This document shows, piece by piece, positions 5,991 through 55,217 of a stretch of DNA of 64,000 bases (its first letter is position 1; the number at the start of each line of letters is the position of its first letter). The notes beneath the pieces are model-generated. The model was not told where the DNA came from and did not search any database. It saw only the letters and a program-made list of their open reading frames with translations. The stretch comes from Chiloscyllium plagiosum (taxonomy: Eukaryota). Where the stretch lies: NCBI RefSeq assembly GCF_004010195.1, contig NC_057749.1, forward strand, positions 12,882,846 to 12,946,845. The letters run 5' to 3'. The position numbers were made by a program, and so were the translations under genes.

Positions 5991-6774
5991 ACAACCTATA
6001 TATTTTCACACTCGGCAAAAACATATGAGCACACCAAGCTTCCATCTTTCAGTAACAGAGATAAGAAAACACCTCAGCCCTTGTGATCTGAGACAAAGAA
6101 GCTAGTAACTGGATTGAAATTCAAAGCCAATCATGCACGCTTCACTGGTTTAAGAGGAGTAAGACAATCTGTCTCAGGTTTTTTTTGACCATGACTCCTT
6201 GCACTGTGCTGTGGTCTCAATAATTCTATCTCCAGTCCGAGGACTCTGGTCTTCAACTGATCTCTTCCATTTCCCTACCCAAATCAAACATGGCATGGAT
6301 GCACTTTTTAAGACTAGTGTATCAGTGAAAGGATTCATATTCCTCACTCGTGCTGCCTTCCCGTTTCTTTGTGGAACCTCCTCCATAATTTATCTAATCT
6401 TCTTGCTTGCAATAACATTATTAATTTTTAAGTGCTGGTTGGAATACTGTGCTCAATTCTGGTCTCCATTTTATAAAAGGCAGTTTATAATTTCCTGGAT
6501 TGATACCAAGACCATAATGCTACACCTGCCAGAAACACTGAATAGTTTGGAGCTCTTTTCTCTCAGAAAGAGAAGACTGAGGGTGATCTGATCGAAAACC
6601 TTACAATTAGGTAAGTTTTGGTAGAGTATTCTTGAAGTGCATGCTTCCACGCAGGAAATAGGCCAGAATTAGGGCCACAAATATAAAATAAGCATCAATA
6701 ATTTAATAGAGCCACAACAGCTTGTGAAGGCCATTGAGTTTAGGCTGGCTGTCTGTAGAACATTCCAGTCAAAA

Positions 6775-8174: not shown

Positions 8175-8901
8175 TGTTATGATCCCAGATGAAGGCAATA
8201 CTGGATAAATCAGATTACAGAAGGAAACCTGGTTTGATAGATCATATATTTAACCTTAGTCGTTGATTAACATGCTGGTCAGTGATGGTAACCTACTCAC
8301 ATGAGGATGCTGATGTTCTTTAACAAGGGAACATTTATTATACTAAAGAAAAATCTACGTATATACAGAAGACAGTGAGAAACATTTTACATCTTTTACA
8401 ATTCCTTTTCTGTGTTTACTGGCATGAATCTCACAATTCTGATGGTTTAAACTTCTTTCAGTTCTAACAACTTGGAGATTTCTAGCCAAACAGTCCTGAC
8501 TTGGAAGCCTCACAGACTAGAAACCACTTCCGCTGTGAATGGTACCCCTGAATGAAGATGTAAAAGTTTGTTCACTTTCTGGGAGAAAAATTGCTCTCTT
8601 TTGGACCTTGAGTTCTTCTGAACAAAACCATTCATTCTTACATCAAAACTGCCTTAATGTGTTTACTCTGAATGCTACCAATCCAACAGTATAAATATTT
8701 TATCTGTTAAAACTGGAGGAGCCTTCCAGGCACTTGACTGCAGTCATATGTCTTTTTGGAACTATTGCACTTTGGTCATTGTCCAAATGACTTCTGACCT
8801 GTTTATAAAACAATCTTCACAGGATTAACTCACACAGCCACTGTCTCTATTTTAGAAACCAAATGTTAAAATATATTACATATTATACAGCTTTCATCAC
8901 A
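8175..8901 (-). mobile_element. Candidate solo LTR inserted in a decayed SINE
   Basis: Starts TGTTATGA and ends TCATCACA (imperfect terminal inverted repeat, TG...CA). Flanks are aatc/aaac, AATAAA lies on the minus strand near 8335, and SINE sequence sits on both sides. Confidence 0.5.
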
Positions 8902-9929: not shown

Positions 9930-10340
9930 GATTGTATTCCTATAGTATCTTTCATTATCTCAAACAATGCTTTATAGCTACTTAAGTACTTTTTAAAATA
10001 TAGTCACTGTTGTCGTGTAGGAAATACAGCAGTTAATTTGCATACCATTAGATTCCATAAACGGAAATAGATGAAGACCAGATCATGTGCTTTTCTCAAT
10101 TATTTTGATTGAGGGATAAATAGTGATGTGGATATTAAAGACAACTCCTGCCTTCTTAAAAATAATGTTGCAGGGTGAATGAGAAAGGAATTGGGGCCTT
10201 GGTTTAACATTTCATCCAAGATATGGCAAGATTGACAGTGCAGAACTTGGGCATTAAGAATGTCAGCCTGGACTTGCCTTCAGGTCTCTGAAGTGAGGCG
10301 TTTCAGACTCAAGGAGAGAATACTACCCACTGAACAACAG
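9930..10340 (-). mobile_element. SacSINE1/DeuSINE-like SINE, degraded
   Basis: Contains gtacttttt..aaatatagtcactgttgtcgtgtaggaaatacagcag, ggccttggtttaacatttcatcc and a minus-strand tRNA head ending ctacccactgaac. Matches copies at 12133 and 14580. Confidence 0.65.
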
Positions 10341-16392: not shown

Positions 16393-17106
16393 GTGTCTCA
16401 TTGAAGGTTCTAAGCCACAGTATTTATTCTGGTCAATAGAGATGGAGTAATGAGTCCAATAAACATAGATTGCACACATCTTAACAATCTGTGCATCTAC
16501 CTGGAGCCCCTATGTAATACACAACAGCTTCCCACAGTCCGACCCTTTTCTCTGATATAGCAAACCCATATAGTTCCTTCAGCAGGATGTAAATTCAATC
16601 CATTAATTCCCCTTGTTTAATGTAATGAATTATTCACTCCATACATTTTCAGTGGTACACACTGCTTAGTGTGCACAACTCTCTCACAGTGTGATACACT
16701 GCTCCTTATGTAACATATCTAGTGGTTTTCAGTGCAACAAATTCTCAAACAATACTGCTTATCTATACGGCCTATCTGATATAAACCTCGGTTCACTCTG
16801 TACAGCTATTTTGCTTGCCCACTATCAATGACATCTTTCCTTTGAGCAGGACAAGATCATCACAGAGATTATTAATACAATGAATGTCCTTGGACATTTA
16901 GTTGAACAAATAACAGATATATATCAATGGAGCAGGAAAGATAAAATTGAGGTTTAAGGCAGTTTCTTTTCTGTACCTAGCAATTATGAACTGGCACAAA
17001 CTCATTTATGGTGAGGTCCCAACTTGAGAGGACCAACAAAAGTTGATCATACCAATGCGAACCTCAACATTTTTTGAGATCTGCTATAATTGAGTGGTAA
17101 GCTTAC

Positions 17107-18544
17107 CTTTCTGAACATGAATGATATCTGGGAAATTGGACAGTAGGCCTTGGTACAGGGAAAGTGTGTCCAACATATGGAACAGATCATTCTTAGGTTG
17201 TTCTGCAAACAACTCTCCAATGGCTTCATACGTTTTGCCAGTGTTGGAAATGGCCTTGTTCAGAGGGACTGCAAGATGTGGTTGATCCAATTCAAATGCC
17301 TGACTTATTGAATTAAAAGCATTGCCTAATTTCTGAAATTCCTTCCTGAAGCCTCCAACATGTTTGCGGCAGAGGTCTGTGGCCACATTGGTCAGTTGCA
17401 GCACACTGTCATCCATCCTCTTGGAGAAGGTTTTGAACGTGTCCACCCTCTCCTCCACATCCTGAAGATCCTGATGCTCCTGTGGGATTTGGATGGTCAG
17501 GAAAGAATTGGCACCGACTAATTCATCTTTCTCCATTCGTCGTTTTCCCTGTTTCCAGGCCCTGTCATCTGTGCAAGTTAGGAAGTGTTGAAATCCCTCG
17601 TATTGGGATAGCACTGGATGGCTTGTCATGTGGTCCATCCACAGAATCAAGCGTCTCTTGCGTTTCTCAATGAAATCATCTTCAAATCGGCCAGTGGCCT
17701 GCTTCTCTGGCAGATGTGGCACAGAGATGACAGAGAACTTGTGCAGCAGCCTGTTGTGTAGCCAGTCGAAATGTTTGTAGCGACGATAAACAGGGTTGTT
17801 GGTTTGACTAGGCGTCAGCTTGTAGGAGATGTAACTCTTGATGCCTTTAAACTTGGTTTGCTTGGTGGGTTCCTCAATGGTACAGGTAAAGGGGTGAGGG
17901 CTCTCGCTCCACTGAGGCCCATCAGGGCTCATCACCACACCGTAGGTTTCTGAAGTCTTAAAGACAGCAGGTACCTCACCCAGAATGAATGCCTCTCCTC
18001 CAGATCTAACAAAACTTGAGAAACGGTTGAAGTTCTTGCCCACAGCACTGCTTTTAGTGCTAAGCCTGCTGGCAGTGCTGTCCTGCCTCTCCACTGATGG
18101 CTTTTGCCTGTACGTCACGTTGGGATATGGGGAGACTGTATATGGATGGAGATGATTGTGGCCATTGGTGTTACTGGACACACCAGGTTCATCGAACACA
18201 GTGGAAGAGTCATCCCAGTCATCCCAATCATCATCATCATCTTCTTCATAGCTGCCCTGTTGGTAGGAGGAGGCTGAACTGGGGGAGTAAATTGCAGAGT
18301 GATTCCCTGCTGAGTGGTGAGTGAAAGTGGAATTGGAAGTGTATGGTAAGGGTGTGCTGGGCTTGAGAATTTCCACATAAGAAGCTGGAAAGAGCCCTTT
18401 GTCTCCTCGACTGTTCTGGCCTTCCAGCCAACCATCCAAAGACTTCTCGTTAAAAACCAGCAGCTGCTCGTTTTCGTGGATGCTGATCTCCTCGGGGTTC
18501 TCACTCTGGAAGCTGTAAAGAGCTTTGGCTTTGATGGAAGCCAT
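17107..18544 (-). CDS. SNX33: Sorting nexin 33, coding exon 1 (SH3, low-complexity, PX and most of BAR domain)
   Basis: N-terminal SH3 (ALYSFQSENPEEISI...SLDGWLEGQNSRG..GLFPASYVEI), acidic EEDDDDDWDDWDD, PX (RRYKHFDWLHNRLLHKFSVISVPHLPEKQATGRFEDDFIEKRKRRLILWMDHMTSHPVLSQYEGFQHFL) and BAR. Ends ...HVQK G|GTAAGC, a phase-1 donor, consistent with the two-exon SNX33/SNX18 structure. Residues are closer to SNX33 than SNX18. Exon 2 was not found in the window. Confidence 0.93.
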
Positions 18545-19827: not shown

Positions 19828-20083
19828 ATAACAGGAATTGCTGGAGAAACCGCCGAGATTCTTTATCATTATTTCAGTCATTTTAGTGCTGTATGGGCAA
19901 TTATATCACCTCCATCAAACTATACCTTATATCATGGAACTGGTGTCAAAGTATAGACAAGGCGTGTGAGAATAAAAATATTCACTGTCCCTATTTCTGG
20001 CAGAAGCAGCGACATTCCAGTGAAAATAAAAACGAGCATCTCTGGCCTGACCTTTTCATCATACTGGGCCATCCAATCATATC

Positions 20084-20231
20084 TGAGAAAGTGAGGACTG
20101 CAGATGCTGGAGATCAGAGTCCAGAGTGTGGTGCTGGAAAAGCACAGCAGGTCAGGCAGCATCCGAGGGGCAGATGAACAGCTTATGCCTGAAACATTGA
20201 TTCTCCTGCCCTCGGATGCTGCCTGACCTGC
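20084..20231. mobile_element. Penelope-terminus-derived fold-back element
   Basis: gcaggtcaggcagcatccgagggg pairs with ccctcggatgctgcctgacctgc. The loop has a decayed cagatga...gaaacatt motif. Confidence 0.75.
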
Positions 20232-20376
20232 ACACCATCCAATTATATCCAAGTACATTCCAAATGATCTTCACTACATAAAAGTGACTGCTTCAAACCT
20301 AGTCTCAATGAAGTTCTACACTGTCAAACTTGCTCACAGACATTGCAGCTATCTTTAAAAAACAATTAAACTTGTG

Positions 20377-20423
20377 ATCGCTTCTCAGCCTTTTGGCTAA
20401 GATCAAGTGTCTGTTCTTATCAG
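20377..20423 (+). pseudogene. RNU2: U2 snRNA 5' fragment (about nt 1-52, 5-nt deletion) forming the head of a Tx1 element
   Basis: ATCGCTTCTCAGCCTTTTGGCTAAGATCAAGTGT-----CTGTTCTTATCAG versus U2 ATCGCTTCTCGGCCTTTTGGCTAAGATCAAGTGTAGTATCTGTTCTTATCAG. Begins exactly at U2 +1. Confidence 0.93.
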
Positions 20424-20581
20424 GACGGGGGTCGAGTTGCGAGTCATCAGAGCTAGTGGAGATCATCGCTGGATCGTGATTGGATGTTGGAGGATCGTTT
20501 GGTTGTGCTGACCTGCTATTGGTGGATCTTCATGCTGGCTTCGGCCTAACGCAAATTCAGGGACCAGCCAACCTCCGAGCT

Positions 20582-22012
20582 ATGGCCTTAACAGCTGCCT
20601 GCACCCCGGGCCAGGGGGTTCGAAACACAGTCCGGGTGACTGTCAAGAAGGTGGAGGAGCGTACACCGGTTGATCGGACGGTGTTCGTCAAGAAGATTTT
20701 GCTCGAGTGCTGTGGGTTCACTGTAGCAGGATTTCCCTGGGGCAGGCTACTTTGACGTCACCTTCAGGAGCGTGAAGCAATGTGAGCAACTACTGAAGGT
20801 CTTCAACGAAAAGGAAGGGGAGCCGCTGTTCTCCATCTTGTCGGCGGTCCCGTTGTCTGTGCTTCCTGCACAGAGGAGTCGGGTTGTTACGATCCACACG
20901 TACAACCCCTATGTTCCAGCAACCGATGTCCTGACGTTCCTGAGAAGATATGTGCAGGTTGAGGGAGAAAGCACCGACGTGGTTGACCCTTTCGGGATCT
21001 GGACCAGCAAACAACAGGTCAAGGTAACCCTGAGGGTTGATGCCAGTGGGAACACCCTCCACCCACCCTCCAGCTTTGCTAATGGAGGGAGCAGAGGGTA
21101 CCTGACATATGCAGGGCAGCCGAAAGTGTGCCAAACCTGCGGGAGGTCAGGCCACATGGCGGCGGAATGCAAGGTCACGATCTGTCGGAACTGCAAGAAG
21201 GAGGGCCACTCGACCAAAGAATGCAAGGAGGCCAAGAACTGCAGTCTGTGCGGGAAGGTGGGCCATGTGTACAAGGCCTGCCCAAAACGAGGGGCCGCCA
21301 CCTATGTGCAGATGGCCAGAGGTGGGCCACAAAAGGACAGCAAGGCACCACTAACCAGCAAGGGAACAGTGTCTGTGGGCACGCAAAAGGAAGGACAGGC
21401 CGGAGCGGAGCAGCTGTCAGCTACAGGAGAGGTACAGCGGCCGAGCGAAGCTCCGACAGGACAGATGGAGGAGGAGGAGAAGGGAAAGAAGGAGGCAGAG
21501 GAATGGATCCTGGTACAAAACAGGAGGAAGAAAACCCGCCAAGCCGCCAAAACCTCCCAGAAAAGGGGGAAACGGCAGCTGCACGGGGAATACACGGACA
21601 GCTCCTCAGAGGGTGAGGATGGGCGCAAGGAGGGTCATCACCAAAAGAAGAGACAGAGCGCTGTGTGAGAAAGGAGGGCAGCACTTGCCAAACAAGGGAC
21701 GAACCTCTTGAGGCAATGGGAAACGACCACCCCCCACCAGGTGAAAGCCAGGAGGGCCCCACCGTCACACAGCTCCAGGTCACTGGATATAGAAGCAGAC
21801 AGCGTGGACCCTGGTCCCGGCCCGATGACACCGGAGCAGGCAAATGGGCCCCAGTGAGGAGCTGGACAGCTACCTCAGCCCCGCGAGGGTCCAGCAGTTC
21901 ATGTTCACCATGGGGATGCAGACAGCTACCCCAGAGGGGCAGGACCAGCGGCAAATGGACACGGGTAACCTCACAACTTGTTAAAAATGGGGATAAGAAT
22001 TGCAAGTATTAA
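20582..22012 (+). pseudogene. Tx1 ORF1 (gag-like, ZCCHC3-like, 3x CCHC), frameshifted
   Basis: MALTAACTPGQGVRNTVRVTV, FDVTFRS, DPFGIWT, RGYLTYAGQPKVCQTCGRSGHMAAEC, CRNCKKEGHSTKEC, CSLCGKVGHVYKACP. Confidence 0.85.
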
Positions 22013-25000
22013 TGTGCGCAGCATAAAATCTGCTGCATGATGTGTTTCAACACTGGCCTTCCTCGCCAACGTCAAAGCCGATGTCCTGTTTCTGCAGGAG
22101 TTTGGGATACCACACCTCAGCAGTTACAGGAGATGGTTGAGCTTGTGGGCCCATGGGCCATCAGTTTGGTCGGGGGGCAACGATAACCGCTCCTCAGGCC
22201 TGGGTATTCTGTTGCGAGGAGGCAACTTCACCATCTCCGAGGTTAAGGAGGTGGTGGGCAGGCACCTCCTTGTCGCTGATATTACATACAGAAATGCTCC
22301 CCTGAGACTGATTAATGTGTACGCCCCAGCGGGTAAAAGTGAACGGTTGGCCGTCCTGCAGCAGCTTCCACTGTTGCTGGCTACGTCCAGGCCAGTCATT
22401 CTGGCCGGAGACTTCAACTGTATCATTGATGCAGATGGACGATCCGGTGGGGGGGGGAGGTTGGGACAGTAAACAGGATCCATGTCCAGAGCCCTGATGG
22501 AAACGGTCAAAGATGCCAAGCTGCACGACGTCTTCAGCATCCCTGCAGACGGAGCGCAGTGTAGATACACCTGGTCACGGGCAGACGGGTTTATCCGCTC
22601 AAGGATAGATTACCTGTTTGTGTCCCGAACGTTCTCGGTCAGAACCACCGACGTCTTCTCTGACCACTGCCTCCTGCTGGCCGACTGTCACCTACAGGAC
22701 GAGCAGCAGGCTGGTAAGGGAACGTGGAAACTGAACACTAAGCTGTTGACCCCGGGAAACATCGAGGAGCTCAAGAGGGACTACGCAGGTTGGAGAACCG
22801 TGAAGCCCCTCTTTGAGTCCCCAGCGGACTGGTGGGAAACAGTAAAAGGGAACATCAAGAGGTTCTTCATCCTCAAAGGTGTTCAGGAGGCGAGAGAGAG
22901 GCGGGGAAAACTGTCCCAGCTCCAGGAAAGTATGCAGAACCTGCTCCTGCTGCAGACCTTGGGGGTCGATGTCACGGAGGACCTCAAGGAGGTGAAGGGC
23001 CAGCAAGCCTCCCTCTTTGCCTCGGAGGCCTCCAAGATAATCTTTCGGTCCAGGATCCGCTCCATGGAGCAGGATGAGACGTGCTCACGTTTCTTCTTCC
23101 AGAAGGTGCACAAAGAGAGCTCTGTGCTCAGCAGCCTGAAGGAAGAAGATGGCTCGATAACGTCATCTCAGGCTGACATCAGGATCAGCAAATCTTTCTA
23201 TGCCAGTCTGTATGACTCGAAGCCAACCAACAGCGCGGCCTCCCAGTCATTCCTGTCCTCTATCACGGAGGTCGGAGATGACAGAACACGGGAGAGGCTG
23301 GACTAGCTGCTATCTCTGGACGAGCTGACCAAGGCCCTCGAGTCCTTCGAAAAGAATAAAACTCCCGGAAGTGACAGCTTACTGGTCGAGATCTATTCTG
23401 CTCTGTGGGACTTGATTGGCCAGGACCTGCTAGAGGTGTATGTCAGTATGCTTCGGGCAGGTACCATGAGTGAATCCATGAGGAAAGGCATCATCACCCT
23501 CTTCTACAAGTGGAAGGGGGAGAGGGAGGAAATTAGAAATTGGAGACCAATCTCACTGTTAAACACAGACTACAAAATCTTGTCAAAGGTCATCGCCAAC
23601 CGGGTCAGGTCTGCTCTGGGATCGGTGATCCACCCTGACCAAACCTGTGCTGTACTGGGCAGGAAGGTCGCCGAGAGTCTCGCACTCCTCAGGGATACGA
23701 TTGCCTACGTGCAGGACAGGGGGGTGGACACCTGCCTCATCAGCCTGGACCAGGAGAAAGCCTTTGACAGGATATCGCATACATATATGAGGGATGTCCT
23801 CTCCAAAATGGGCTTCGGGGAGGGAATCGCTAATTGGATCAGACTGCTCTACACCAACATTGTCAGTGCAGTCTCAATTCATGGGTGGGAATCAGATAGC
23901 TTCCCAGTCAGATCTGGAGTCAGGCAGGGCTGCCCCCTCTCTCCTGCCTTGTTTGTGTGCTGCATAGAGCCATTTGCCGAATCCATCAGGAAGGATGCGG
24001 GCCTGAGAGGGGTGACTATTCCTGGCAGCGGGGGCCTGCAGGTTAAGGCCTCCCTGTACATGGATGACGTCGCCGTTTTCTGCTCGGATCCGCTGTCCGT
24101 GCGCAGACTCATGTGCATCTGTGACCAGTTTGAGCGGGCCTCGGGGGCCAAGGTAAACCGAGGCAAGAGCAAAGCCAAGCTCTTCGGGAACTGGGCCGAC
24201 CAATCCTCTATCACCTTCACCATCAGGACCGACTACCTGAAGGTGCTGGGTATTTGGTTCAGGGAGGCTGGGGCGTGTGCCAAGACCTGGGAGGAGTGGA
24301 TCAGGATGATGAAACAGAAATAGGCAGATGGGAGCAATGGTCGCTCTCCATCGCCGGGAAGAGCCTGATCATCAGGTGTGAGGTACTCTCGGTATTGTTA
24401 TATGTGGCACAGGTCTGGCCTATCCCCAGAACCTGTGCTGCCGCAGTCACCCGGGCCATCTTCCACTTCATGTGGAGATCAAAGATGGAATGGGTCCGAA
24501 GGGACACAATGTACAAAGACCAGAACAATGGGGGAAAAAACACGCCCAATACCATCCTCACCCTGATGGCCACCTTTATGTGTGGCTGCATCAAGCTGTG
24601 CGTGGATCCCCGGTACGCAAACACCAAGTGTCACTACGTACTGAGGTTCTACCTGTCCCTGGTGTTGCGAAGGATGGGCCTGGCCTCGCTGCCGCAGAAC
24701 GCTCCGAGTAGTTGGACCGTTCTGTACCACCTCTCCTTCGTGGAGAAGTTTATGAAGAAAAACACCTTTGACCACAAGTCCATCAGGAAGTGGTCAGCAC
24801 GTAGTGTCCTTGAGACCCTTCGGGAAAAGGAGAGGGCAGATCCTGTCGAGCGATTCCCTGAGCAGACTGTCAAAGCCATTTGGCAGAATGCTTCATCACC
24901 AGAACTTTCCAACAAGCACCAAGACATGGCATAGCTGGTGGTGAGAAGGGCTCTGCCTGTGAGATCCTTTATGTACACCCGGACTCTCTGCTGCCCCGCA

Positions 25001-25387
25001 CGCTGCCCTCGAAGCGGCTGCGGGGGGGACGAGACTGTCACCCACCTCCTTCTGGAATGTGCCTATGCAGAGGAAGTCTGGAGAGGAATGCAGTGGTGTT
25101 TGTCGAGGTTCGTCCCGAGCAGCGCCGTGACGCGGGACTCCATGCTCTACAGCCTGTTCGCCGGGACGCACACTGAGACGAACATCAACTGCGTCTGGAG
25201 GATCATCAACTCGGTGAAGGACGCTCTCTGGGCGGTCCGAAACCTGTTGATCTTCCAGCTGAAGGAGTTGACCCCGACTGAGTGTTGTGGACTGGCACAT
25301 TCCAAGGTCCAGGACTACGTGTTGAGGGACGCGCTGAAGCTTGGGGCAGCTGCCGCCAACGCATGGTGGGGAAAGACCACCGTGTAA
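21987..25387 (+). pseudogene. Tx1 ORF2 (APE endonuclease, reverse transcriptase, zf-RVT), disrupted
   Basis: MGIRIASINVRS, LFLQE, LINVYAP, ILAGDFNC, SRIDY, SDH; WRPISLLNTDYKIL, LDQEKAFD, GVRQGCPLSP, YMDD; CPRSGCGGDETVTHLLLEC; ends WWGKTTV*. Confidence 0.9.
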
Positions 25388-25621
25388 CATCTGCCTGCCT
25401 AACGAAGAACAGGGGGCCCACGCAGTCATTTGGGCTCCGCTGGCGTCTCAGCTAAAAATGTAATCGCACAGACCTGTAAATATGAATGATTACTCTGTTT
25501 CGGATTGCAAAGAAACTGAAGGCTTACATATGTATGGCATATCCAATTGTACAGATCATCAAAGTATTTTATGAATAAAGTATATTTTTAAAATAAAAAA
25601 AATTAAACTTGTGCAGTGAGA

Positions 25622-28600
25622 CCCTGAAGGTCAATGCCAGTAGGAACATTCTCCACCCACCCTCCAGCTTTGCAATCAGAGGAAGCAGAGGGTACCTGAC
25701 GTACGCAGGGCAGCCAAGAGTGTGCCGAACCTGTGGGAGGTCAGGCCACATGGCGGCGGACTGTAAGGTCACTATCTGTCAGAACTGCAAGAAGGAGGGT
25801 CACCCGACCAAGGAATGTAAAGAGGCCAAGAACTGTAATCTGTGTGGGGAGGCGGGCCACGTGTACAAGGCCTGCCCAAGACGAGGGGCCACCACCTACG
25901 CACAGATGGCTGGAAGTGGCAATGCGAGCTGTGGACCTCAAATGGCCAACAAGGTACCACAAACCAGGAGAACGGTGTCTGGGGGCACCCAGAAGGATGG
26001 AGCGGAGAGAGACGGCAGCCAGCGGGGAGGTGCAGCAGCCAATCCAAGCTCCTACAGGACAGATGGAGGAAATGGAGGAGGAACGAACCAAGGAGGCAGA
26101 GGAGTGGATTCCTGTAAAAAGGAGGAAACCTCGCGAGGCCCCCAAAATCACCCAGCAAAGGGGGAAATGACACTTGCATGAGGAGGATACAGGCAGTTCT
26201 TCAGATGGCGAGTACGGGCGTAAGGAGGGTCGTCATCAGTGGAAGAGACAAAGCGCCGCGGGGAAAAAGAAGGGCAGCACCCTCCAGACAGGAAAGGTCG
26301 AACCCTCTGAGGAGACTGGTAAAGACCACCCCCCCACCCAGTGAGAACCAGGAGGTACCTACTGCCCCACAGCTCCAGGTAACTGGGAGCAGCGACCCTC
26401 TGACAGCCCCGCTGTCAGACAGAGAACTGGACTGTGTGGACCCTGGTCCTGACCCAAAGACACCAGAGCAGGGAAATGCCTGCATTGTGGAGCTGGACAG
26501 CTACCTCAGCCCTGACAGTGTGTCCAGCAGTTCGTGTTCCCCACAGGAATGCAGATAGCTATCCCAGAGAGACAGGACCAGCAGCAAATGGACACTGGTA
26601 ACCTCATAAACTGTTAAACTGGGGATAAAAATTGCCAGTATTAATGTGCGTAGTATTAAATCTGCTACGCAATGTGTTTCTATGTTGTCCTTCCTCACCA
26701 ACGTTAAAGCTGATGTCCTGTTTCTGCAGGAGTGTGGGATACCGCACCTAAGCACCTACAGGAGATAGTCAAGCTCGTGGGCCGATGGGCCGTCAGTTTG
26801 GTCAGTGGGCAACGATAGTTGCGCCTCCGGCCTGGGTATCCTGTTGTGAGGAGTCAACTTCACCGTGAATCCCCTGTTTTGAGTCTCCAGCGGACTGGTG
26901 GGAAACAGTAAAAAGGAACATCAAGAGGTTCTTCATCCTCAAAGGTGTTCAGGAAGCGAGAGAGAGGTGGGGAATAATGTCCCAGCTCCAGGAAAGTATG
27001 CAGAACCTGCTCCTGCTGCAGACGATAGGGGTGGATGTCACGGAGGACCTTGAGGAGGTGAAGGGCCAGCAAGCCTCCCTCTTTGCCTCGGAGGCCTCCA
27101 AGATAATCTTCCGGTCCAGGGTCCGCTCGGCGGAGCAGGACGAGACGTGCTCACGTTTTTTCTTCCAGAAGGTGCACAAAGAGAGCTCTGTGCTCAGCAG
27201 CCTGAAGGAAGAAGATGGCTTGGTAACGTCATCTCAGGCTGACGTCATGAGGATCAGTAAATCCTTCTGAAGGGGGAGAGGGAGGAACTCAAAACTTGGA
27301 GACCAATCTCACTGTTGAATGCGGATTACAAAATTCTGTCAAAGGTAATCGCCAACCGGGTCAGGTCTGCTCTGGGGTTGGTGATTCACCCTGACCAAAC
27401 CTGTGCGGGCAGGCAGATCGCTGAGAGTCTCGCACTCCTCTGGGATACGATCGCCTACGTGCAGGACAGAGGGTCGGACACCTGTCTGATCAGCCTGGAC
27501 CAGGAGAAAGCCTTTGACAGGATATCACACATGTATATGAGAGATGTTCTCTCCAAAATGGGTTTTGGGGAGGGAATCTGCAATTGGATCAGCCTGCTCT
27601 ACACCAACATTGTCAGTGCAGTTTCAATCAATGGGTGGGAATCAGATAGCTTCCCAGTCAGATCTGGAGTCAGGCAGGGCTGCCCTCTCTCTCCTGCCTT
27701 GTTTGTGTGCTGCATAGAGCCATTGGCCGAGTCCATCAGAAAGGATGTGAGCCTGAGAGGGGTGACTATTCCTGGCAGCGGGAGCCTGCAGGTTAAGGCC
27801 TCCCTGTACATGGATGACGTCGCCGTTTTCTGCTCGGATCTGCTGTCCGTGCGCAGACTCATGTGCATATGTGACCAGTTCGAACGGGCCTCGGGGGCCA
27901 AGGTAAACAGAAGCAAGAGCGAGGCCATGCTCCTCGGGAACTGGGCTGACCAATCCTCGATCCCCTTCACCGTCAGGACCGACCACCTGAAGGTGCTCGG
28001 TATTTGGTTCGGAGGGGCTGGGACTTGCACCAAGTCTTGGGAGGAGCGGATCAGCAAAGTGAGGCAGAAACTGGGCAGATGGAAGCTATGGTCGCTCTCC
28101 ATCGCGGGAAAAAACCTGGTCATCAAGTGTGAGGCCTTGTCATTGCTATTATGTGTGGCACAGGTCTGGCCTATTCCCAGAACCTGTGCCGCTGCAGTCA
28201 CCCGGGCCATCTTCCAATTTATATGGACATCAAAGATGGACCAGGTCCGAAGGGACTTGATGTATAAAGATCTGGGCAACGGGGGAAAAAATACACCCAA
28301 TGCCACCCTCATCCTGATGGCCACCTTTGTGTGTGGCTGCATCAAGCTGTGCGTGGATCCCCGATACGCAAACACCAAGTGTCACTACGTACTGAGGTTC
28401 TACCTGTCCCCGGTGTTGCGAAGGATGGGCCTCGCTGCCGCGGAACACTCCAAGTAGTTGGACCGTTCCGTATCACCTGTCTTTTGTGGAGAAGTTTATG
28501 AAGAAAAACACCTTTGACCACAAGTCCATCAGGAAGTGGTCAGCACGTAGTGTCCTTGCGACCCTTCAGGAAAAGGAGAGGGCGGATCCTGTCAAGCGGT

Positions 28601-29349
28601 TCCCTGGGCAGACTGTCAAAGTCATTTGGCAGAATGCCTCATCGCCAGAGCTTTCCAACAAGCACCAAGACATGGCTTAGCTGGTGGTGAGAAAGGCTCT
28701 GCCTGTGAGATCCTTTATGTACACCCGGACTCTCAGCCGCACCGCACGCTGCCTTCGAAGCGGCTGTGGAGGGGACAAGACTGTCACACACCTCCTTCTG
28801 GAATGTGCCTACGTAAAGGAAGTCTGGAGAGGAATGCAGTAGTGTTTGTCGAGGTTCATCCCAAGCAGCTCTGTGACGCGGGACTCCATGCTCTACGGCC
28901 TGTTCCCCGGACACACACCGAGACGAACATCAACTGTGCTTGGAGGATCATCAACTCGGTGAAAGACACTCTTTAGTCTGTCCGAACCTGTTGGTCTTCC
29001 AGCTGAAGGAGCTGACCCCGCTTGAGTGTTGTGGACTGGCACATTCCAAGGTCCAGGACTACGTGTTGAGGGACGTGCTGAAGCTTGGAGCAGCTGCCGC
29101 CAAGGCGCGGTGGGGAAAGACCACCGTGTAAGGTCTGCCTGCCAAAGAAGAACAGAGGGCCCGCGCAGTAATCGGGCTCTGCTGACGCCTCAGCTAAATA
29201 TATGGATAGTAAACGTACAGACCTGTATATGAATGATTACTCGATCTCTGTATGTAAAGAAATGCAAGGTACGCCTATGAATGGCATCACCAATTGTACA
29301 GATCATCAAAATATTTTATGAATAAAGCCTATTTTTGAAATTTAAAAAA
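25622..29349 (+). mobile_element. 5'-truncated, internally deleted Tx1-clade element, copy 2
   Basis: Starts within ORF1 (TLKVNASRNILHPPSSF); RT 27315-28457 with YMDD; ORF2 ends WGKTTV* at 29131; AATAAA at 29321; TSD AATT(A/G)AACTTGTGCAGTGAGA at 25601-25621 and 29350-29370. Confidence 0.92.
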
Positions 29350-29829
29350 AATTGAACTTGTGCAGTGAGAAAGAGAACCTGAAATCCAATTAGTTTGGTT
29401 TTCAGGAGTGTGAAAATCTGCAATTTGTCAGTTTAAAGCAGATAATTGTTCATCACCAATGGTTTTTAACTGATTTACTCATCAGTCAGCTGCCGATTCT
29501 AAAGAAAAAGTAAAGATAATATTAACATTTTTAAAAACTAAGTTCATGCAGAGAAAGGGAATTGACCGTGAACAACAACTTGGATCAATCAAACTTTACA
29601 TTACAGACTGCACCTGGATTAATAGGAATCTGAAAACATATCATTTTCATCAATTCAACTCTTGAGCTTTCATTAGTAGTTTGAATCTGGAAGACAGGAA
29701 ATGCAACAAATCAGTTGTAAATGAGATCAATACTTTGCTATAGGAAATATGAAAATATCTGGAAATTTCTATCGACTAGGGAAAAAGTAATAGGACATGG
29801 AAGAGCAAAATAACGTGGATGGTGGAGAT

Positions 29830-30076: not shown

Positions 30077-33000
30077 AGACCATAAGACATAGGAGCAGAA
30101 ATTAGGCCATTCAGCCCATCATGTAGCTCTGCCATTCAATCGAGCCTGACATTGGTGGTGGGTAAGTTGTTGGAGGGAATCTGAGGGACAGGATTTACAT
30201 GTATTTGGAAAGGCAAGGACTGATTAGAGATAGTCAGCATGGCTTTGTGTATGGGAAATCACATCTCACGAACTTGATTGAGTTTTTTGAAGAGGTAATG
30301 AAGAGGATTAATGAGGGCAGAGCAGTGGACGTGATCTATATGGACTTCATTAAGGCATTTGACAATGCCTTACTGAGACTGGTTAGCAGGTTAGTTCTCA
30401 TGGAATACAGGGAGAACAAGCCATTTGGATAGAGAACTCGAAGGTAGAAGACAGAGGGTGATGGTGGAGGGTTGCTTTTCAGACTGGAGGCCTGTGACCA
30501 GTGGTGTCAGAAGGGTCAGTGCTGGGTCCACTGCTTTTTGTCATTTATATAAATGATTTGGATGTGAACATAGGAGGAACTGTTAGTAAGTTTGCAGATG
30601 ACACCAAAATTGGAAGCATAGTGGACAGCGAAGGTTACATCAGCGTACAATGGGATCTTGATCAGATGGGTCAATGGGCTGAGGAGTGGCAGATGAAGTT
30701 TAATTTAGACAAAGGTGAGATGCTGCATTTTGGAAAAGCAAATCAGAGAAACACTTATACACTTAATGGTAATGTTCTGGGGAGTATTGCTTGAAAGTGG
30801 AGTTGCAGGTAGATAGGATATTGAAGAAGGTGTTTGATATGCTTTCCTTTGTTGGTCAGAGCATCGAGTATAGGAGTTGGGAGGTCATGTTGTGGCTGTA
30901 CAGGATGTTGGTTAGGCCACTTTTGGAATATTGGTTGCAATTCTGATGTCCTTCCTATCAGAAGGATGTTGAGAAACTTGAAAGGGTTCAGAAAAGATTT
31001 ACAAGCATGTTGCCAAGTTTGGAGGATTTAAGCTACAGGGAGAGGCTGAACAGGCTGGAGCTGTTTCCCTGGAGCATCAGAGGCTGAGAGTGAGCGTATA
31101 GAGGTTTATAAAATCATGAGGGGCATGGATAGGATAAATAGACAAGGTCTTTTCCCTGGGGTGAGGGAGTCCAGAACTCGAGGACATATGTTTAGGGTGA
31201 GAGAGGAAAGATATAAAAGGGACTTAAGAGGCAACCTTTTCAGAAGAAGGAGCTGCCAGAGGAAGTGTTGGCGGCTGGTACAATTATAGCATTTAAAAAG
31301 ACATCTCGACGGGTATATGAATAGGAAGGGTTTAGAGGGATAGGGCCAAGTACTGGCAAATAGAACTAGATTAGGTTAGGATATCTGGTCAGCATGGACA
31401 AGTTGGACTGAAGGGTCTGTTTCCATGCTGGACATCTCTATGATTCTCTGATTCTATGGCTGATAAGTATCTCAACCCCATTCTCCCGCTTTCTCCCCAT
31501 AACCCCTGATCCCTTGATACTCAAGACCCTATCTATCTCAGTCTTAAATATACTCAATGACCTGGCCTCCACAGACTTCTGTGGCAATGAATTCCATAGA
31601 TTCACCACTCTTCGGCTGAAGAAGTTTCTCCTTTTCTCCGTTCTAACAGGTCTTCCCTGAGATGATGCCCTTGGGTCCCAGTTTCTCCTACCAACGGAAA
31701 CATCTTCCAACATCTACTCTGTCCAGGCCATTCAGTATTCTGTATGTTTCAATTAGATCCCCCGCCCCCAATCCTTCTAAATACCATCAGGTATAAACCC
31801 AGGGTCCTCAAATGTTCCTCATGTGTTACATTTTTCATTCCTGGGACCATCCTCATCTGAACATGCTCCAGGTTCAGTATATCCTTCCTGAGATATGTAA
31901 ATGTGGCCTGACCAGAGCATTATAGATCCTCAGAAGTACATCCCTATTTTCATATTCAAGTGCACAAAATAAATGCCATCATTGCATTTGCCTTCCTAAC
32001 TGCTGACTCAACCCATAAGTTTACCTTGAGAGAATCCTGGACTAGAACTCCCAAGTCTCTTTGCACTTCAGGCTTCTGAATTTTCTCCCCATTTAGAACA
32101 TAGTCCATGCCTCTATTCTTCCAAGCAAAGTACATGCCCACACATTTCCACATTGTATTTCATCTGCCACTTCTTTGCCCACTCTCCTAAATTGTCTAAA
32201 CCCTTCTGAGGACTCCCTGCCTCCTCAATGCTACCTGTCCCTTTACCAATCTTTGTATCATCTGCAATCTTAGCCAGAATGCCCTCAGTTCCTTCATCCA
32301 GATCGTTAATGTATAAGGTGAAAAGTTGTGGTCCCAACAGTGAGCCTTGCGGATCACCACTTGTCACTGGCTGAGAAGGACCCTTAAATCCCCACTCTCT
32401 GCTTCCTGCCAGACTGCCAAGCTTCTCTCCATGCTAGCACCTTGTCTCTGACACCTTGGGTCCTTATCTTACTCAGCAGCCTCCTGTGCAGCACCTTGTC
32501 AAAGGCCTTCTTGAAGTCCAGGTAGATAACAGCCATTGGCTCTTCCTAGACTAACCTACTCGTTACGTCCTAAAAGAATTCTAGCAGATTTGTCAGGCAT
32601 GACCTCCCCTTAATGAAACCATGCTGACTTTGCCCTTTTTTTATCATATGCCTCCAATTGTTCAGAAACCTCATCCTTCACAATGGATTCCAGGATCTTA
32701 CCCATGACCGAGGTTAAGCTAATTGGCCTGTAATTTTCCATTTTTTGCCTGACTCCCTTTTTAAGCAGAGGCGTCACATTCGTGATCTTCCAGTTCTCTG
32801 GTACCCTTCCTGATTCTAGCCATTCCTGAAAGATCACCATTAACACCTCCACTATATCTTCAGCTATCTCCCTTAGAACTCTGGGATATAGTCCATCTGG
32901 TCCAGGTTATTTATCCACCTTCAGGCCATTCAGTTTTTCTTGCACTTTCTCCTTGCTGATGGCCAGCATTTTGGGATATTACTCGTGTCTTCCTCTATGA

Positions 33001-33372
33001 AGACTGACACAAATTAATTATTCAGTTCCTCAGCCATTTTCTTGTTTCCCCACTTCTATCCCTCCAGCATTATTTTCCAGTGGCCCAATATCCACCTTTG
33101 CCTCTCTTTTGCCCTTTATATATCTAAAGAAACTCTTACAGTCTTCTCTTATATTACTGGCTAGCTTACCTTCATATTTAATCTTCTCCCTCCTTATTTC
33201 TTTTTTTTGTTGTTCTCTGTTGGTCTTAGTAAGCTTCCCAATCCTCTGGTTTCCCACTGCCCTTTGCCACGTTACACTATATACTTTCTCTTTTGCTTTT
33301 ATGCTATTCCTGACTTCCCTCATCAGCCATGGTTGCCTCATCCTCCCTGTACCATGCTTCTTCTTCCTCATA
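30077..33372 (-). mobile_element. CR1 LINE (RT to 3' UTR) with a second CR1 nested in its 3' UTR
   Basis: Minus-strand ENYRPISLTSVMGKILES, GDPQGSLLGPQLFTLYINDLD, KIADDTK and RNFFSRRVVNLWNSLP. The 3' UTR is split between 30077-30143 and ~31458 onward. Confidence 0.88.
30145..31457 (+). mobile_element. CR1 LINE 3' portion, nested
   Basis: SQHGFVYGKSHLTNLIEFF, IYMDFIKAFD, GSVLGPLLFVIYINDLD, KFADDTK; ends in a (ctctatga)-like tail. Confidence 0.9.
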
Positions 33373-36980: not shown

Positions 36981-37833
36981 AGGTTGCTTTTCAGGTTGGA
37001 GGCCTGTGACCATTCATGTGCCACAAGGATTAGTGCTGGGTCCACTGCTTTCTGTCATTTATATAAATGATTTGAATGTGAACATAGCAGATATGGTTAG
37101 TAAGTTTGCAGATGACAACAAAATTGGTGGTGTAGTGGACAGAGAAGGTTACCTCAGAGTACAACAGGATCCTGATCAAATGAAGTTTATATTAGAGAAA
37201 TACAAGGTGCTGCATTTTGGAAAGGCAAATCAGAGCAGGACTTATACACTAAATAGTAAGGTCCTGGGGGCTGTTGCAGAACAAAGAGACCTTGGAGTGC
37301 AGGTTCATAGTTCCTTGAAAATGGAGTCCCAGGTCGATAGGATAGTGAAGAAGGCATTTGGATTGCTTGCTTTTATTGGTCAGAGCATTGAGTATAGAGT
37401 TGAGAGGTCATGTTGCAGCTGAACATTGGTTATGGCAATATTTGGAATACTACATGCAATTCTGGTCTCCCTGCTATAGGAAAGATGTTATGAAACTTGA
37501 AATGGTTCAGAAAAGATTTACAAGGATGTTGCCAGGGTTGGAGGGTTTTAGTTATAGGGAGAGGCTGAATAGGCAGGGGCGATTTCCCCTGAAGCGTCAG
37601 AGGCTGAGGGGTGACCTTATAGAGGCTTATATCATGAGGAGCATAGGAAGGGTGAATAGACAAGGTCTTTTCCACGGGTTGGGGTGAGTCCAAAACTAGA
37701 GTGCAAAGATTTAATCTGAGAGGGGAAAGATTTAACAGGGACCCAAGGGGCAAAATTTTCCCACAGAGAGTGGTACATGGAATGAGCTGTCAGAGGAGTT
37801 GGTGCAGGTTGGTACAATTACAACATTTAAAAG
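36981..37833 (+). mobile_element. CR1 LINE RT/3' fragment
   Basis: VPQGLVLGPLLSVIYINDL, KFADDNK, RDLGVQVHSSLK, QRLRGDLIEAY. Confidence 0.9.
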
Positions 37834-46425: not shown

Positions 46426-49204
46426 TCAAAGATCGCTGGGTCAAAATTCTGGAACTCTGCCTTGTGTGTAGCCCTACATTCCAAGGAGAGCTCACCGTAC
46501 GTTCTCCACGACTACTGGTGATGGACAATAATTGCTGGCCCAACCAGTGGCACCCACAGCCAATGAACACTTTTTTTAATGAATGTTTTATGATTCCCCT
46601 AAATTAAAAGGTTTTGTATATCATTCCAGCCCAGGTACCATCCTTTTGATATGGCATTTAAACTGCACACAAATAAACGATAGACGTAGTGTCTAATTTC
46701 ATAAGAATCCAGTTTCCTTACTATATCCCTCTTCCCCCAATTCCTGCTGGTTCTAGTCATTCAGGTACTGATTAAAAATCACAAGGCGTTACTTCAAAGG
46801 GATATGAATAGTAAGGGTTTGGAGGGATATGGGTCCAATGCTGGCAAATGGGACTGGATCAGATTGGGATGTCTGGTCAATGCGGACAAGTTGGACCATA
46901 GGGTCTGTCTCTGAGGGGTGTAACTCTGACTCCTCTGTGAACCTTAGCCAGAAGCCATTTCTGTGCCATTTCTATTTCCTTTCTGGTTGATTTCAGCAGC
47001 CCCTGTCAGGAAAATGACCAGTGGTGAAACATCCACTCAGTTTGTGACAAGATTACAGTGGATGTTTCTAAACTTGTGGAAATAAGATGTCTGCCAACAA
47101 TTTGTATAGTGGAGGTGACCTGTGACCTTTCTTCCTTGCCATTGCTGATTTTAAGTGGCATTTCTGTTCAGCTGTTGATCCATGGTGATATCTTGGCAGT
47201 AAAGGCAATGATATGAAGGGAGGGATTCCCATGTTTCTGCTGCCCTTCTCTTCTAGATGGAAGTGGTCCTGGATTTGGAAGGTGCTGTCTAAGGAGCCTT
47301 GGGAATTTCTGCAGTGCTTTTGTATATGGTACACACTGCAGCTACTGAGTGGTGGTGGAGGAGGGATGGGGATATTTGTGGATGTGACACAAATCAAAAG
47401 GCTATCTTGTCCTGGATAGTGTCAAGCTTCTTGTGATGTTGGAGCAGCACCCATCCAGTGAAGTGGGGATTATTCCATAGATGGTGGATAGGCTTTGGGA
47501 GTTCGGGGAGTCACTCACTGCAATATTCCTAGCCACTGTTTGTGGACAGTCCAGTTGAGTTTCTGGTCAATGATATCCCCTAAGATGTTGATAACAGAGG
47601 ATTCCGTAATGGTTAACACCATTGAATGGTCAAGGGACAGTCGTTAGGTTATTTCTTATTGGTGATTGTCATTGTCTGTCATTTGTGTGGTATGGATGTT
47701 ACTTGCCGCTTATATCTTACAGGATCCAGCTGCTGAATGTAAGCAAGATATTTGAACTTGAACAAGAGATCACTCATTCAGATTTAAATTCAATTCCTGT
47801 GTAATAATGCAGATGCTGATCTTAGATTTGTAATGTTGTTAACAAAGAATCACAAAATTGGGAAGAACTATCATTGAACATGAGAATGTTAATGAAGTTG
47901 GCTGCACCCATAAGTTTAATTGTCCATCAGCTGGTCTGTATGGTGGTTCCTCAGTTTCATCATTTGTGATGAATTGGAGTGGAGCGAAGTGGGCAGATGG
48001 GTGGGAATCGGAACAAGACTTCCTTGTCTTTGCTGTTGTGCCAGAAGACCTCAGGCTCTGGAGTTCATGTTGAGGGTTCCCAGGACCATTCGTTCCTGAC
48101 TACATACTATTTTCAACTATGAAACAACAAAACAAGCAAAGGTGAAAGGGATTAAAAAATCCTTGCCATGCATTGTCTCTACCCCACACATTGTCTCTAC
48201 CCCACACATTCTAAAGTTAATCAGCATGTTCAATATTTCTTTTTTTTTTTCATAGAACTGTGTGCAGGTTTATGGGGTGAATGCAGATAAATGTAATTCC
48301 TCTACTGTACAAGGAAGTGAATTTATCAGCCACAAAGATGGATTTTGTTCCCATCCTACATCCTCTTTGATTATAGCCCAACGTCCTGTACTGATGGTGA
48401 CCTCCTGTGCTACAGCTACACTTTTTTTTTTCTTGACAAATCTGTCCCTACTTTGAGCTGATCTGTTTGTATCCACACTGCACATTTCCCATGGTGGGAT
48501 TTGTATGAATTATGGTACAAGTTTTGGTTTACATCAAACTCTACAGTAGACCAGATTTCAGAGCTTGGGTGTGTCTAGTAAAGTGGAGGAGGAATCATGC
48601 TAGTCAGAGCCTGCTGTTGCATGCAATCATTTAGGTAGGTCTCATTTTGGAGGTTTGGCTTAACAGGATTTGAATCAAACTACTCTAGTCTTGAAATTTA
48701 ACCATAGTTGCTGGGATCCCAGTCTTGCTAATGCTAGAGTTGTACTATGTACTTGGTTCCTTGGGAGATTGGTCCCTTCTTATGTTATTATACTTTAAAT
48801 GATTGTAAGAACATCTTTGTAACAGGAATCTTGACTTGCACTTCTTTTAAAGTAAGTTGGCAACTGGAAGTTGCTCCTGTGCTGAAGGGCCTCAACACGA
48901 AGGCAGAAGGGGTTTTATTGTGTTCTACAGTGTTCAAATCATGTTAGACAGCCAGATGTTTTTGGTTTTACTTGTACTGAAAGTAGCTGAATCATCACGT
49001 GATGTAGAGGAAGCAGTTGTGAGTAATATTTTATAGTTGACTACTTTTAAAAATCCTGTTCCTTTGCTGGAGTCAGTTACAAGTGCAATAGCCACATTCT
49101 TAAATTACTCGTCATCTTTTTAACTTGTGAACAGTTTGTTGACTGAGCCCATGGTAGGTTTCATAGAAGATCAAATCATGTCTTCAATTCTGATCACCCT
49201 TCAA

Positions 49205-54900: not shown

Positions 54901-55217
54901 TCTTTCCATGGGTGGGAAAGACTAGGCCCTGAAGGTATAGGTTAGAATAAAGGGAAGACACTTTAGAATGGAGATAAGGAGAAATTTCTTTAGCCAGAGA
55001 TTAGCAGTTTTTCCACAGGTTATTTCCACAGCAATTTATCTACCACAGAAGACTGGAGGCCAGGTCGAGTATATTTAAGACAGGGATAGGTTCTTGTTTG
55101 TCAAGGGTTATGGGGAGAAAGCAGGAGAATGGGGTTGAGAAACTTATCAGCCATGATCGAATGGCGGAGCAGACCTGATGGGCTGAATGGCTTAATTGCT
55201 GTCCCTGAATCTTATAG
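51940..55217 (+). mobile_element. Near-complete decayed CR1 LINE in SNX1 intron 2
   Basis: ORF1 tail (YWDRRDLYCWDGVHLN), endonuclease (YDLVGITEAWL, VGVTYRSPN), KLPGPNGLYPTVLKE, RT and 3' UTR. Confidence 0.9.

What the first reader, a model, noticed from the sequence alone, without database searches (positions are those of the whole stretch)
20364..29370. Two different Tx1 elements stacked at one nick site, with three TSD copies
Seen: X-copy1-XY-copy2-XY, with X=AATTAAACTTGTG and Y=CAGTGAGA. The two TSDs share a left edge but differ in length (13+ and 21+ bp). The copies differ clearly in the ORF1 tail and 3' UTR, so this is not a simple tandem duplication. The empty site rebuilds as ...TTTAAAAAA(C)AATTAAACTTGTGCAGTGAGAAAG.... 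Inference: independent insertions reused the same first-strand nick, implying sequence preference or a hotspot ~1.8 kb upstream of the SNX33 ATG. Copy 2 is probably older (TSD mismatch, more decay).
Basis: partly seen in the sequence, partly recalled or inferred. Interest (0 to 1): 0.75.

Follow-up and report, generated by a model that had tools for sequence, protein, structure and literature searches.

The report
Two stacked LINEs, one U2-headed
Two related but distinct jumping genes landed one behind the other at the same spot near a shark-like fish gene, and the first carries a scrap of the U2 splicing RNA at its front; both habits are already described, so this is a clean new example and not a new principle.

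Summary
The layout X-copy1-XY-copy2-XY is real. The copies are Tx1-clade LINEs from separate, once-active lineages: 87.7% identical, with dN/dS 0.29 over 818 ORF2 codons. That rejects a segmental duplication and supports two insertions. Its nearest relatives with DNA context sit in U2 genes with a fixed 3' junction and variable 5' junctions, so these are Keno-lineage elements outside U2. A fixed nick with a variable second cut explains TSDs of 13 and 21 bp. Limits: the shared left edge is blurred by up to 9 nt in an A-run. The site resembles neither the U2 target nor a repeat in the window, so a hotspot or specificity is unshown. Copy 2 being older is favoured by two measures and not by two others. 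Empty alleles were not examined. Precedents exist: double-insertion dimers, and U2-headed Tx1 with TSD-sandwiching tandems in crocodilians. The scan's own unchecked notes report U2-headed and stacked Tx1 elsewhere in this genome. New member of a known kind.

The parts
20364..20376 (+). Target-site copy 1 (X only); left edge may extend up to 9-10 nt into the preceding T/A run
20377..20423 (+). U2 snRNA head of copy 1: U2 nt 1-33 joined to nt 39-52, 1 mismatch. The missing 5 nt cover most of the branch-point recognition sequence (its position is recalled)
   Evidence: Rfam U2 E=5e-6, 37.3 bits, below the gathering score of 46; coordinates
20424..20580 (+). 5' UTR of copy 1
   Evidence: between the head and the presumed ORF1 start codon; inference
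20581..21668 (+). ORF1 of copy 1: ZCCHC3-type RNA-binding domains and CCHC knuckles; frameshifted near 20727
21987..25387 (+). ORF2 of copy 1: AP endonuclease, reverse transcriptase, zf-RVT; stops at 22038, 22470, 23304 and 24932, frameshift near 24321
25388..25600 (+). 3' UTR, AATAAA, T-run and short A tail of copy 1
25601..25621 (+). Target-site copy 2 (XY) between the elements; the last base may be 1-nt microhomology with copy 2
25622..29349 (+). Copy 2: 5'-truncated inside ORF1; internal deletions of 567 bp (endonuclease, 3-nt microhomology) and 313 bp; 5 private stops and 4 small frameshifts; 3' UTR and A tail
29350..29370 (+). Target-site copy 3 (XY, one mismatch)
17084..18544 (-). Neighbour: first coding exon of an SNX33-like sorting nexin (SH3-PX-BAR), pointing away from the LINE pair

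Best explanation
Two sequential target-primed reverse-transcription events by two lineages of a Keno-related Tx1-clade LINE. Each endonuclease nicked the bottom strand at the same A/T-rich spot (same to within 0-9 nt). The top strand was cut 13 bp away in one event and about 21 bp away in the other, giving nested TSDs with a common left edge. The first insertion duplicated the site and put an A tail before one duplicate, so a cleavable site persisted for the second. More likely (about 65-70%) copy 2 came first and copy 1 then entered the left duplicate. Copy 1 was copied to the very 5' end of an RNA that began at U2 nt 1. Most simply, its source element sat (or descends from one that sat) in a U2 gene and was transcribed by read-through from the U2 promoter; this copy then landed off the U2 target. 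Shown: anatomy, separate lineages, U2 head, U2-embedded relatives. Inferred: nick chemistry, order, source of the transcript.
For: Three target copies in the pattern expected of double insertion (10.1101/158386 passages). Purifying selection between the copies: dS 0.231, dN 0.067 over 818 ORF2 codons, p=5e-19; ORF1 ratios 0.20 and 0.25. Uneven divergence along ORF2, chi-square p=0.001. Different 5' ends, one full length and one truncated. 13 of 80 fetched relatives hold U2 pieces. In the 7 with a downstream U2 piece it starts at nt 38 (4 loci) or 35 (3 loci); in the 9 with an upstream piece it ends at nt 26 (6 loci), 52, 55 or 66. The head of copy 1 ends at nt 52, as in L003. In a quick RT tree the copies fall in a group with U2-embedded loci L001-L007 and L014 (SH-aLRT 84), with U2-embedded L009 outside it. 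Age lean: 98 vs 47 and 11 vs 2.
Against: No empty or single-insert allele was seen: no genome is held and no reads were laid. No other copy of this family was recovered with flanks (0 matches; best segment identities 30-51%). The tree is the quick one; the careful search did not finish, and the node joining the copies to U2-embedded loci has support 84, below the tool's 95 mark. Two age measures are even, and the GC-to-AT asymmetry is unpolarised. One stop at a conserved Trp is shared by both copies, so some lesions may be inherited or converted. The head could equally come from a one-off template switch (PMC4494074 discussion).
Confidence: 0.8

Rival explanations
1. True new target specificity: this lineage left U2 and now recognises a sequence containing X/XY, perhaps inside an old repeat, so stacking here is the rule rather than luck.
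For: Two different lineages chose one spot. Crocodilian Keno relatives moved to Mariner and LTR targets (PMC4494074, part 3 read). Unchecked scan notes report other Tx1 families in this genome that stack at a fixed site. A 23-bp stretch 30 bp left of X matches another place in the window at E=0.001.
Against: The rebuilt empty site has no counterpart in the rest of the window: best local score 47 against up to 46 in 20 shuffles, and that hit lies about 130 bp from the site. The right flank finds no look-alike among the scan's notes (a weak test). Doubly hit sites are expected by chance if the family has thousands of copies.
Confidence: 0.2
2. The same two independent insertions arose on different alleles and were joined later by unequal recombination through the short XY duplicate.
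For: It gives the same final layout and needs no second hit on an occupied allele (inference from the anatomy).
Against: It needs recombination through only about 21 bp of identity on top of two hits at one site. Direct double insertion is documented.
Confidence: 0.07
3. The U2 head is a one-off template switch from LINE RNA to free U2 snRNA during this insertion, not a trace of a source element in a U2 gene. (Rival for the head only.)
For: 5' addition of U1/U2 pieces by template switch is proposed for crocodilian elements (PMC4494074). The internal 5-nt gap can be read as two pieces joined at U2 nt 33/39. An unchecked note gives another copy in this genome a 42-base head, not 47.
Against: The head ends at nt 52, where a U2-embedded relative has its 5' junction, and the gap can be placed to end at the lineage's nick, nt 38/39. 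Two unchecked notes report U2-headed Tx1 elsewhere in this genome.
Confidence: 0.25
4. Local tandem or segmental duplication of one element, followed by decay.
For: Head-to-tail copies, up to 95.5% identical in parts of the RT; one shared stop.
Against: Synonymous differences exceed non-synonymous in all 9 segments (ratios 0.18-0.42), which neutral decay of duplicates cannot give. The longest identical run is 73 bp. X without Y at the left end is unexplained by duplication.
Confidence: 0.02

Closest known systems
Tandem dimers of non-LTR retrotransposons formed by double insertion (R1, jockey, DMRT1B in Drosophila; McGurk and Barbash, 10.1101/158386, 12 passages read)
   Same: Head-to-tail copies with the target duplicated in the junction; differing 5' truncations; R1 tandems with TSDs of different lengths.
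   Different: Here a vertebrate Tx1-clade family, two lineages about 12% apart, old and fixed-looking, at a site not shown to be multicopy.
Keno, the U2 snRNA gene-specific Tx1-clade LINEs (PMC4494074 introduction; PMC4640811 section 6)
   Same: APE-RT ORF2; RT groups with U2-embedded loci; 5' U2 piece ending at nt 52 as in L003; fixed 3' and variable 5' junctions.
   Different: Neither copy is followed by U2 sequence, and the target does not resemble the U2 site. It is Keno-derived, not a U2-specific Keno insertion.
Crocodilian Tx1-Mar families and SINEU (Tx1-11_Crp, SINEU-3; Kojima 2015, PMC4494074, parts 1-4 of 5 read; supplementary figures not seen)
   Same: Keno-clustered Tx1 outside U2 genes with a U1 or U2 head; tandem copies sandwiching a TSD, explained by sequential insertion.
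   Different: Those prefer sites in Mariner-N4 or LTR elements; no host repeat is evident here. Host is elasmobranch-like (closest named protein hits: Mobula 82%, Stegostoma 70%).

Membership tests
Tx1 clade LINE | ORF1 with RNA-binding domains and CCHC knuckles; ORF2 with AP endonuclease, RT and C-terminal zinc finger | tested here: met
   PF23057/PF23058/PF00098; PF03372, PF00078, PF13966
Tx1 clade LINE | RT most similar to Tx1-clade proteins | tested here: met
   Named hits include 'transposon TX1 uncharacterized 149 kDa protein' of Danio at 45%; tree
Tx1 clade LINE | 3' A tail and target-site duplication | tested here: met
Keno (U2-specific Tx1) | RT in the lineage of U2-embedded elements | tested here: met
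   Quick tree only: group with L001-L007 and L014 at SH-aLRT 84; U2-embedded L009 outside it
Keno (U2-specific Tx1) | 3' end followed by U2 sequence from about nt 39 | tested here: not met
   Both copies are followed by XY; the only U2 piece in the window is the head
Keno (U2-specific Tx1) | Target resembling the U2 site | tested here: not met
   33% of 6000 background 21-mers align to U2 nt 39-58 as well as XY does
U2-headed Tx1 family (Tx1-11_Crp type) | U2 5' fragment at the 5' end of the element outside a U2 gene | tested here: met
   Copy 1 only; copy 2 is 5'-truncated
U2-headed Tx1 family (Tx1-11_Crp type) | Head shared by many copies (a family trait) | not testable with these tools
   No genome held; only unchecked notes on two other loci
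Tx1-Mar-type targeting | Preferred site inside another transposon | tested here: inconclusive
   No counterpart of the empty site in the 64-kb window; genome-wide repeats not searchable
Double-insertion tandem dimer | Target duplicate in the junction, matching the outer flanks | tested here: met
Double-insertion tandem dimer | Two independent elements (different truncation, different source lineages) | tested here: met
Double-insertion tandem dimer | Empty or single-insert allele with one target copy | not testable with these tools
   No genome; no reads laid
Segmental duplication | Even, neutral divergence between copies | tested here: not met
   dN/dS 0.29; heterogeneity p=0.001

The most novel reading that the evidence does not exclude
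An elasmobranch Keno lineage has split transcription from targeting: source copies stay in U2 genes and use the U2 promoter, so progeny carry a U2 nt 1-52 leader with the branch-point pairing motif deleted, while the endonuclease has switched to a new non-U2 sequence containing XY that it hits repeatedly, including 1.8 kb upstream of SNX33. That would catch a target switch in progress, with two lineages sharing the new target.
Probability: 0.12. Interest if true: 0.55.

Novelty: new member of a known kind. Interest (0 to 1): 0.3.

Why it matters
The locus is a tidy natural record of Tx1 insertion chemistry: one first-strand position, two second-strand positions, two lineages. It also extends U2-headed, off-target Keno relatives from crocodilians to an elasmobranch-like genome. 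I found no paper on this in sharks in four searches of the held library; that library lacks most subscription papers and Repbase. If genome-wide flanks showed a new specific target, the family would be a model for how APE endonucleases change targets. As it stands both phenomena have precedent, and no effect on SNX33 is shown.

Tried and rejected
Own-genome search: none held. Sequencing runs: 19 of 24 listed rows hold part of 19900-20700, but no reads were laid, so these shares are not used as evidence and orthologous alleles remain unseen. Rfam at gathering thresholds over the whole window: 0 hits; the U2 head appears only at the E-value threshold. An exact 38-nt 3'-end pattern in metagenome contigs: 0 matches. 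A protein-profile scan kept the best 80 of 463 confirmed relatives, none close enough to be this family. Rfam was run on 12 of those 80 loci; a local U2 alignment on the plus strand of all 80. Resemblance of XY to the U2 target looked possible by eye and was rejected. A host repeat at the site was not found in the window. Dating by CpG decay and by polarised amino-acid changes gave no difference (of 108 non-synonymous codons, 36 could be polarised at the 60% threshold, 63 were variable and 9 matched neither). The TSD mismatch and the extra C were rejected as evidence of order because each is private to one copy. The careful tree did not finish; 75 rows were kept, and relatives covering too little of the RT were dropped. 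Naming P0028 (BAD04856) as Keno could not be confirmed: PMC4746887 names only a nucleotide accession as Keno_Tn (passages) and PMC4889948 lists BAD04856 without a family name (one passage). PMC5786205 added nothing (one passage). PMC4476161 was seen only as a search listing with the start of its abstract. Look-ups of earlier findings by sequence and nearby place were empty.

Full report
Observation. The 13-bp X occurs at 20364-20376, 25601-25613 and, with one mismatch, 29350-29362; the 8-bp Y follows the last two. Four matches at up to one mismatch compare with a mean of 0.20 in 100 shuffles; the fourth, at 47909-47921, borders no element in its printed context. Between the target copies lie two head-to-tail LINEs. 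Copy 1 (20377-25600) is near full length, with ORF1 (RNA-binding domains, CCHC knuckles) and ORF2 (AP endonuclease, RT, zf-RVT). Copy 2 (25622-29349) starts inside ORF1 and lacks 567 bp and 313 bp internally. No third copy of the family is in the window. X begins 1820 bp upstream of the first Met of an SNX33-like exon on the other strand. The closest named proteins are from Mobula (82% over 62% of the query) and Stegostoma (70%), in line with an elasmobranch host.

Two insertions, not a duplication. The copies are 87.7% identical over 3677 columns, ranging from 76% to 95.5% in 200-column windows. Over 818 ORF2 codons dS is 0.231 and dN 0.067 (ratio 0.29, p=5e-19); all 9 segments give 0.18-0.42. 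Duplicates decaying in place would give a ratio near 1.

The nick. A T and six A precede X in all three places, with an extra C at the left copy only. These bases could be target, since the left flank reads as a T-run then A-run nick motif of the L1 type (motif recalled). They could also be tail, since fish relatives end in an interrupted A-run too (L001, L002, L007). The common left edge is thus known to 0-9 nt, and 'same nick' holds at that resolution.

Copy 1 starts, directly after X, with U2 snRNA: Rfam E=5e-6, 37.3 bits, under the gathering score. It covers U2 nt 1-33 and 39-52 at 20377-20423 with one mismatch, and is the only U2 piece in the window. Among the 80 best relatives fetched from metagenome contigs, 13 hold U2 pieces. 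Downstream pieces start at nt 38 (4 loci) or 35 (3 loci); upstream pieces end at nt 26 (6 loci), 52, 55 or 66 (Rfam on 12 loci). This is the Keno pattern: the U2 sequence downstream of Utopia starts at nt 39 and Keno shares that 3' flank (PMC4640811 section 6). In a quick RT tree of 75 rows the copies group with elasmobranch-like and amphibian proteins (97), inside a group with U2-embedded L001-L007 and L014 (84); U2-embedded L009 lies outside. So U2 targeting probably predates this lineage, with moderate support. The relatives also show a constant 3' junction and a variable 5' junction, which is the behaviour needed to make TSDs of 13 and 21 bp with one left edge.

Target. XY does not resemble the U2 site: 33% of 6000 background 21-mers score as well. 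The rebuilt empty site has no counterpart in the window (score 47 against up to 46 in 20 shuffles, and off-site). T/A-run motifs occur at 1.6 per kb here. Taking a 3.6-Gb genome from an unchecked note and assumed family sizes, 0.09 doubly hit sites are expected for 1,000 copies and about 9 for 10,000. The chance for any one copy is 0.02-0.2%, so some preference is plausible, but one locus does not prove it.

Order. Both orders give the same layout. The mismatch in the right TSD and the C at the left are each private and cannot polarise. CpG decay (50 sites in copy 2, 42 in copy 1; p=0.47) and amino-acid changes polarised on 29 homologues (15 vs 21; p=0.41) are even. Non-CpG GC-to-AT transitions (98 vs 47; p=3e-5) and disabling lesions in the shared span (11 vs 2; p=0.02; 9 vs 2, p=0.07, without the two large deletions) point to copy 2 (lesion tally made by hand). 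The first measure is unpolarised, and deletions can arise at insertion. I put copy 2 first at 65-70%.

Mechanism. Shown: anatomy, separate lineages, U2 head, U2-embedded relatives. Inferred: TPRT twice at one A/T-rich spot that the first insertion duplicated and left cleavable; a full-length cDNA for copy 1 reaching U2 nt 1; a source element in, or derived from, a U2 gene and read from its external promoter (snRNA promoters lie upstream, PMC4494074). A one-off template switch remains a 25% rival for the head.

Comparison. Double insertion with a TSD in the junction is described for Drosophila non-LTR elements (10.1101/158386, passages). Crocodilian Keno-clustered Tx1 families carry U1 or U2 heads outside snRNA genes, and SINEU-3 forms tandems sandwiching a TSD by sequential insertion (PMC4494074; its supplementary figures, which show junctions, were not seen). 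The pair works like these. It is a Tx1-clade member, and it is not a U2-specific Keno insertion because the 3' U2 flank is absent. Four searches found no paper on such elements in sharks. The scan's unchecked notes describe U2-headed Tx1 at two other loci of this genome and several stacked Tx1 arrays; I could not inspect them.

Open. Empty and single-insert alleles, family copy number, a target logo and the frequency of the head all need the genome or reads, which were not available.

Verdict. Real, correctly read as two insertions; specificity unproven; order probable; an unnoticed U2 head links it to Keno. New member of a known kind; interest 0.3.

Noticed in passing
window 24932 and 28678: Both copies carry a stop at a Trp found in 115 of 117 aligned homologues. 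The base before it differs between the copies and dN/dS stays 0.39 downstream, so recurrence, short conversion or a defective source lineage are all open.
   Followed up: partly
window 25622-29349: Copy 2 has an excess of A where copy 1 has G before another G (25 vs 8), more than the mirror context (8 of 188 vs 25 of 254, p=0.03, post hoc), including three private Trp-to-stop changes. It might be deamination of minus-strand cDNA; weak.
   Followed up: partly
window 20409-20410: The 5-nt gap in the U2 head can be placed to end at the U2 nt 38/39 nick used by the relatives and removes most of the branch-point pairing motif (position recalled).
   Followed up: partly
window 24131-24533 vs 27881-28284: An 84%-identity patch in the RT thumb region between 92-95% neighbours, rich in amino-acid changes private to copy 1; suggests mosaic subfamilies.
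   Followed up: partly
L008:9-144: A relative with a U1-like piece, not U2, at its 5' end (Rfam E=7e-5, below gathering).
   Followed up: no
L001:5807-5957, 6549-6665, 8698-8723: Keno-like element in a U2 gene within a U2/U5 repeat unit; a second U2 start ends again at nt 26 followed by the same bases as the first.
   Followed up: no
window 20311-20333 and 10226-10248: 23-bp match (E=0.001) just left of the target; the second place looks like a decayed SINE core (DeuSINE resemblance recalled, not tested).
   Followed up: partly
window 30166-31300 and 31456-33367: Decayed RT-bearing repeats with further copies at 36982-37832 and 53284-55154; CR1/L2-like by recall, not tested.
   Followed up: no
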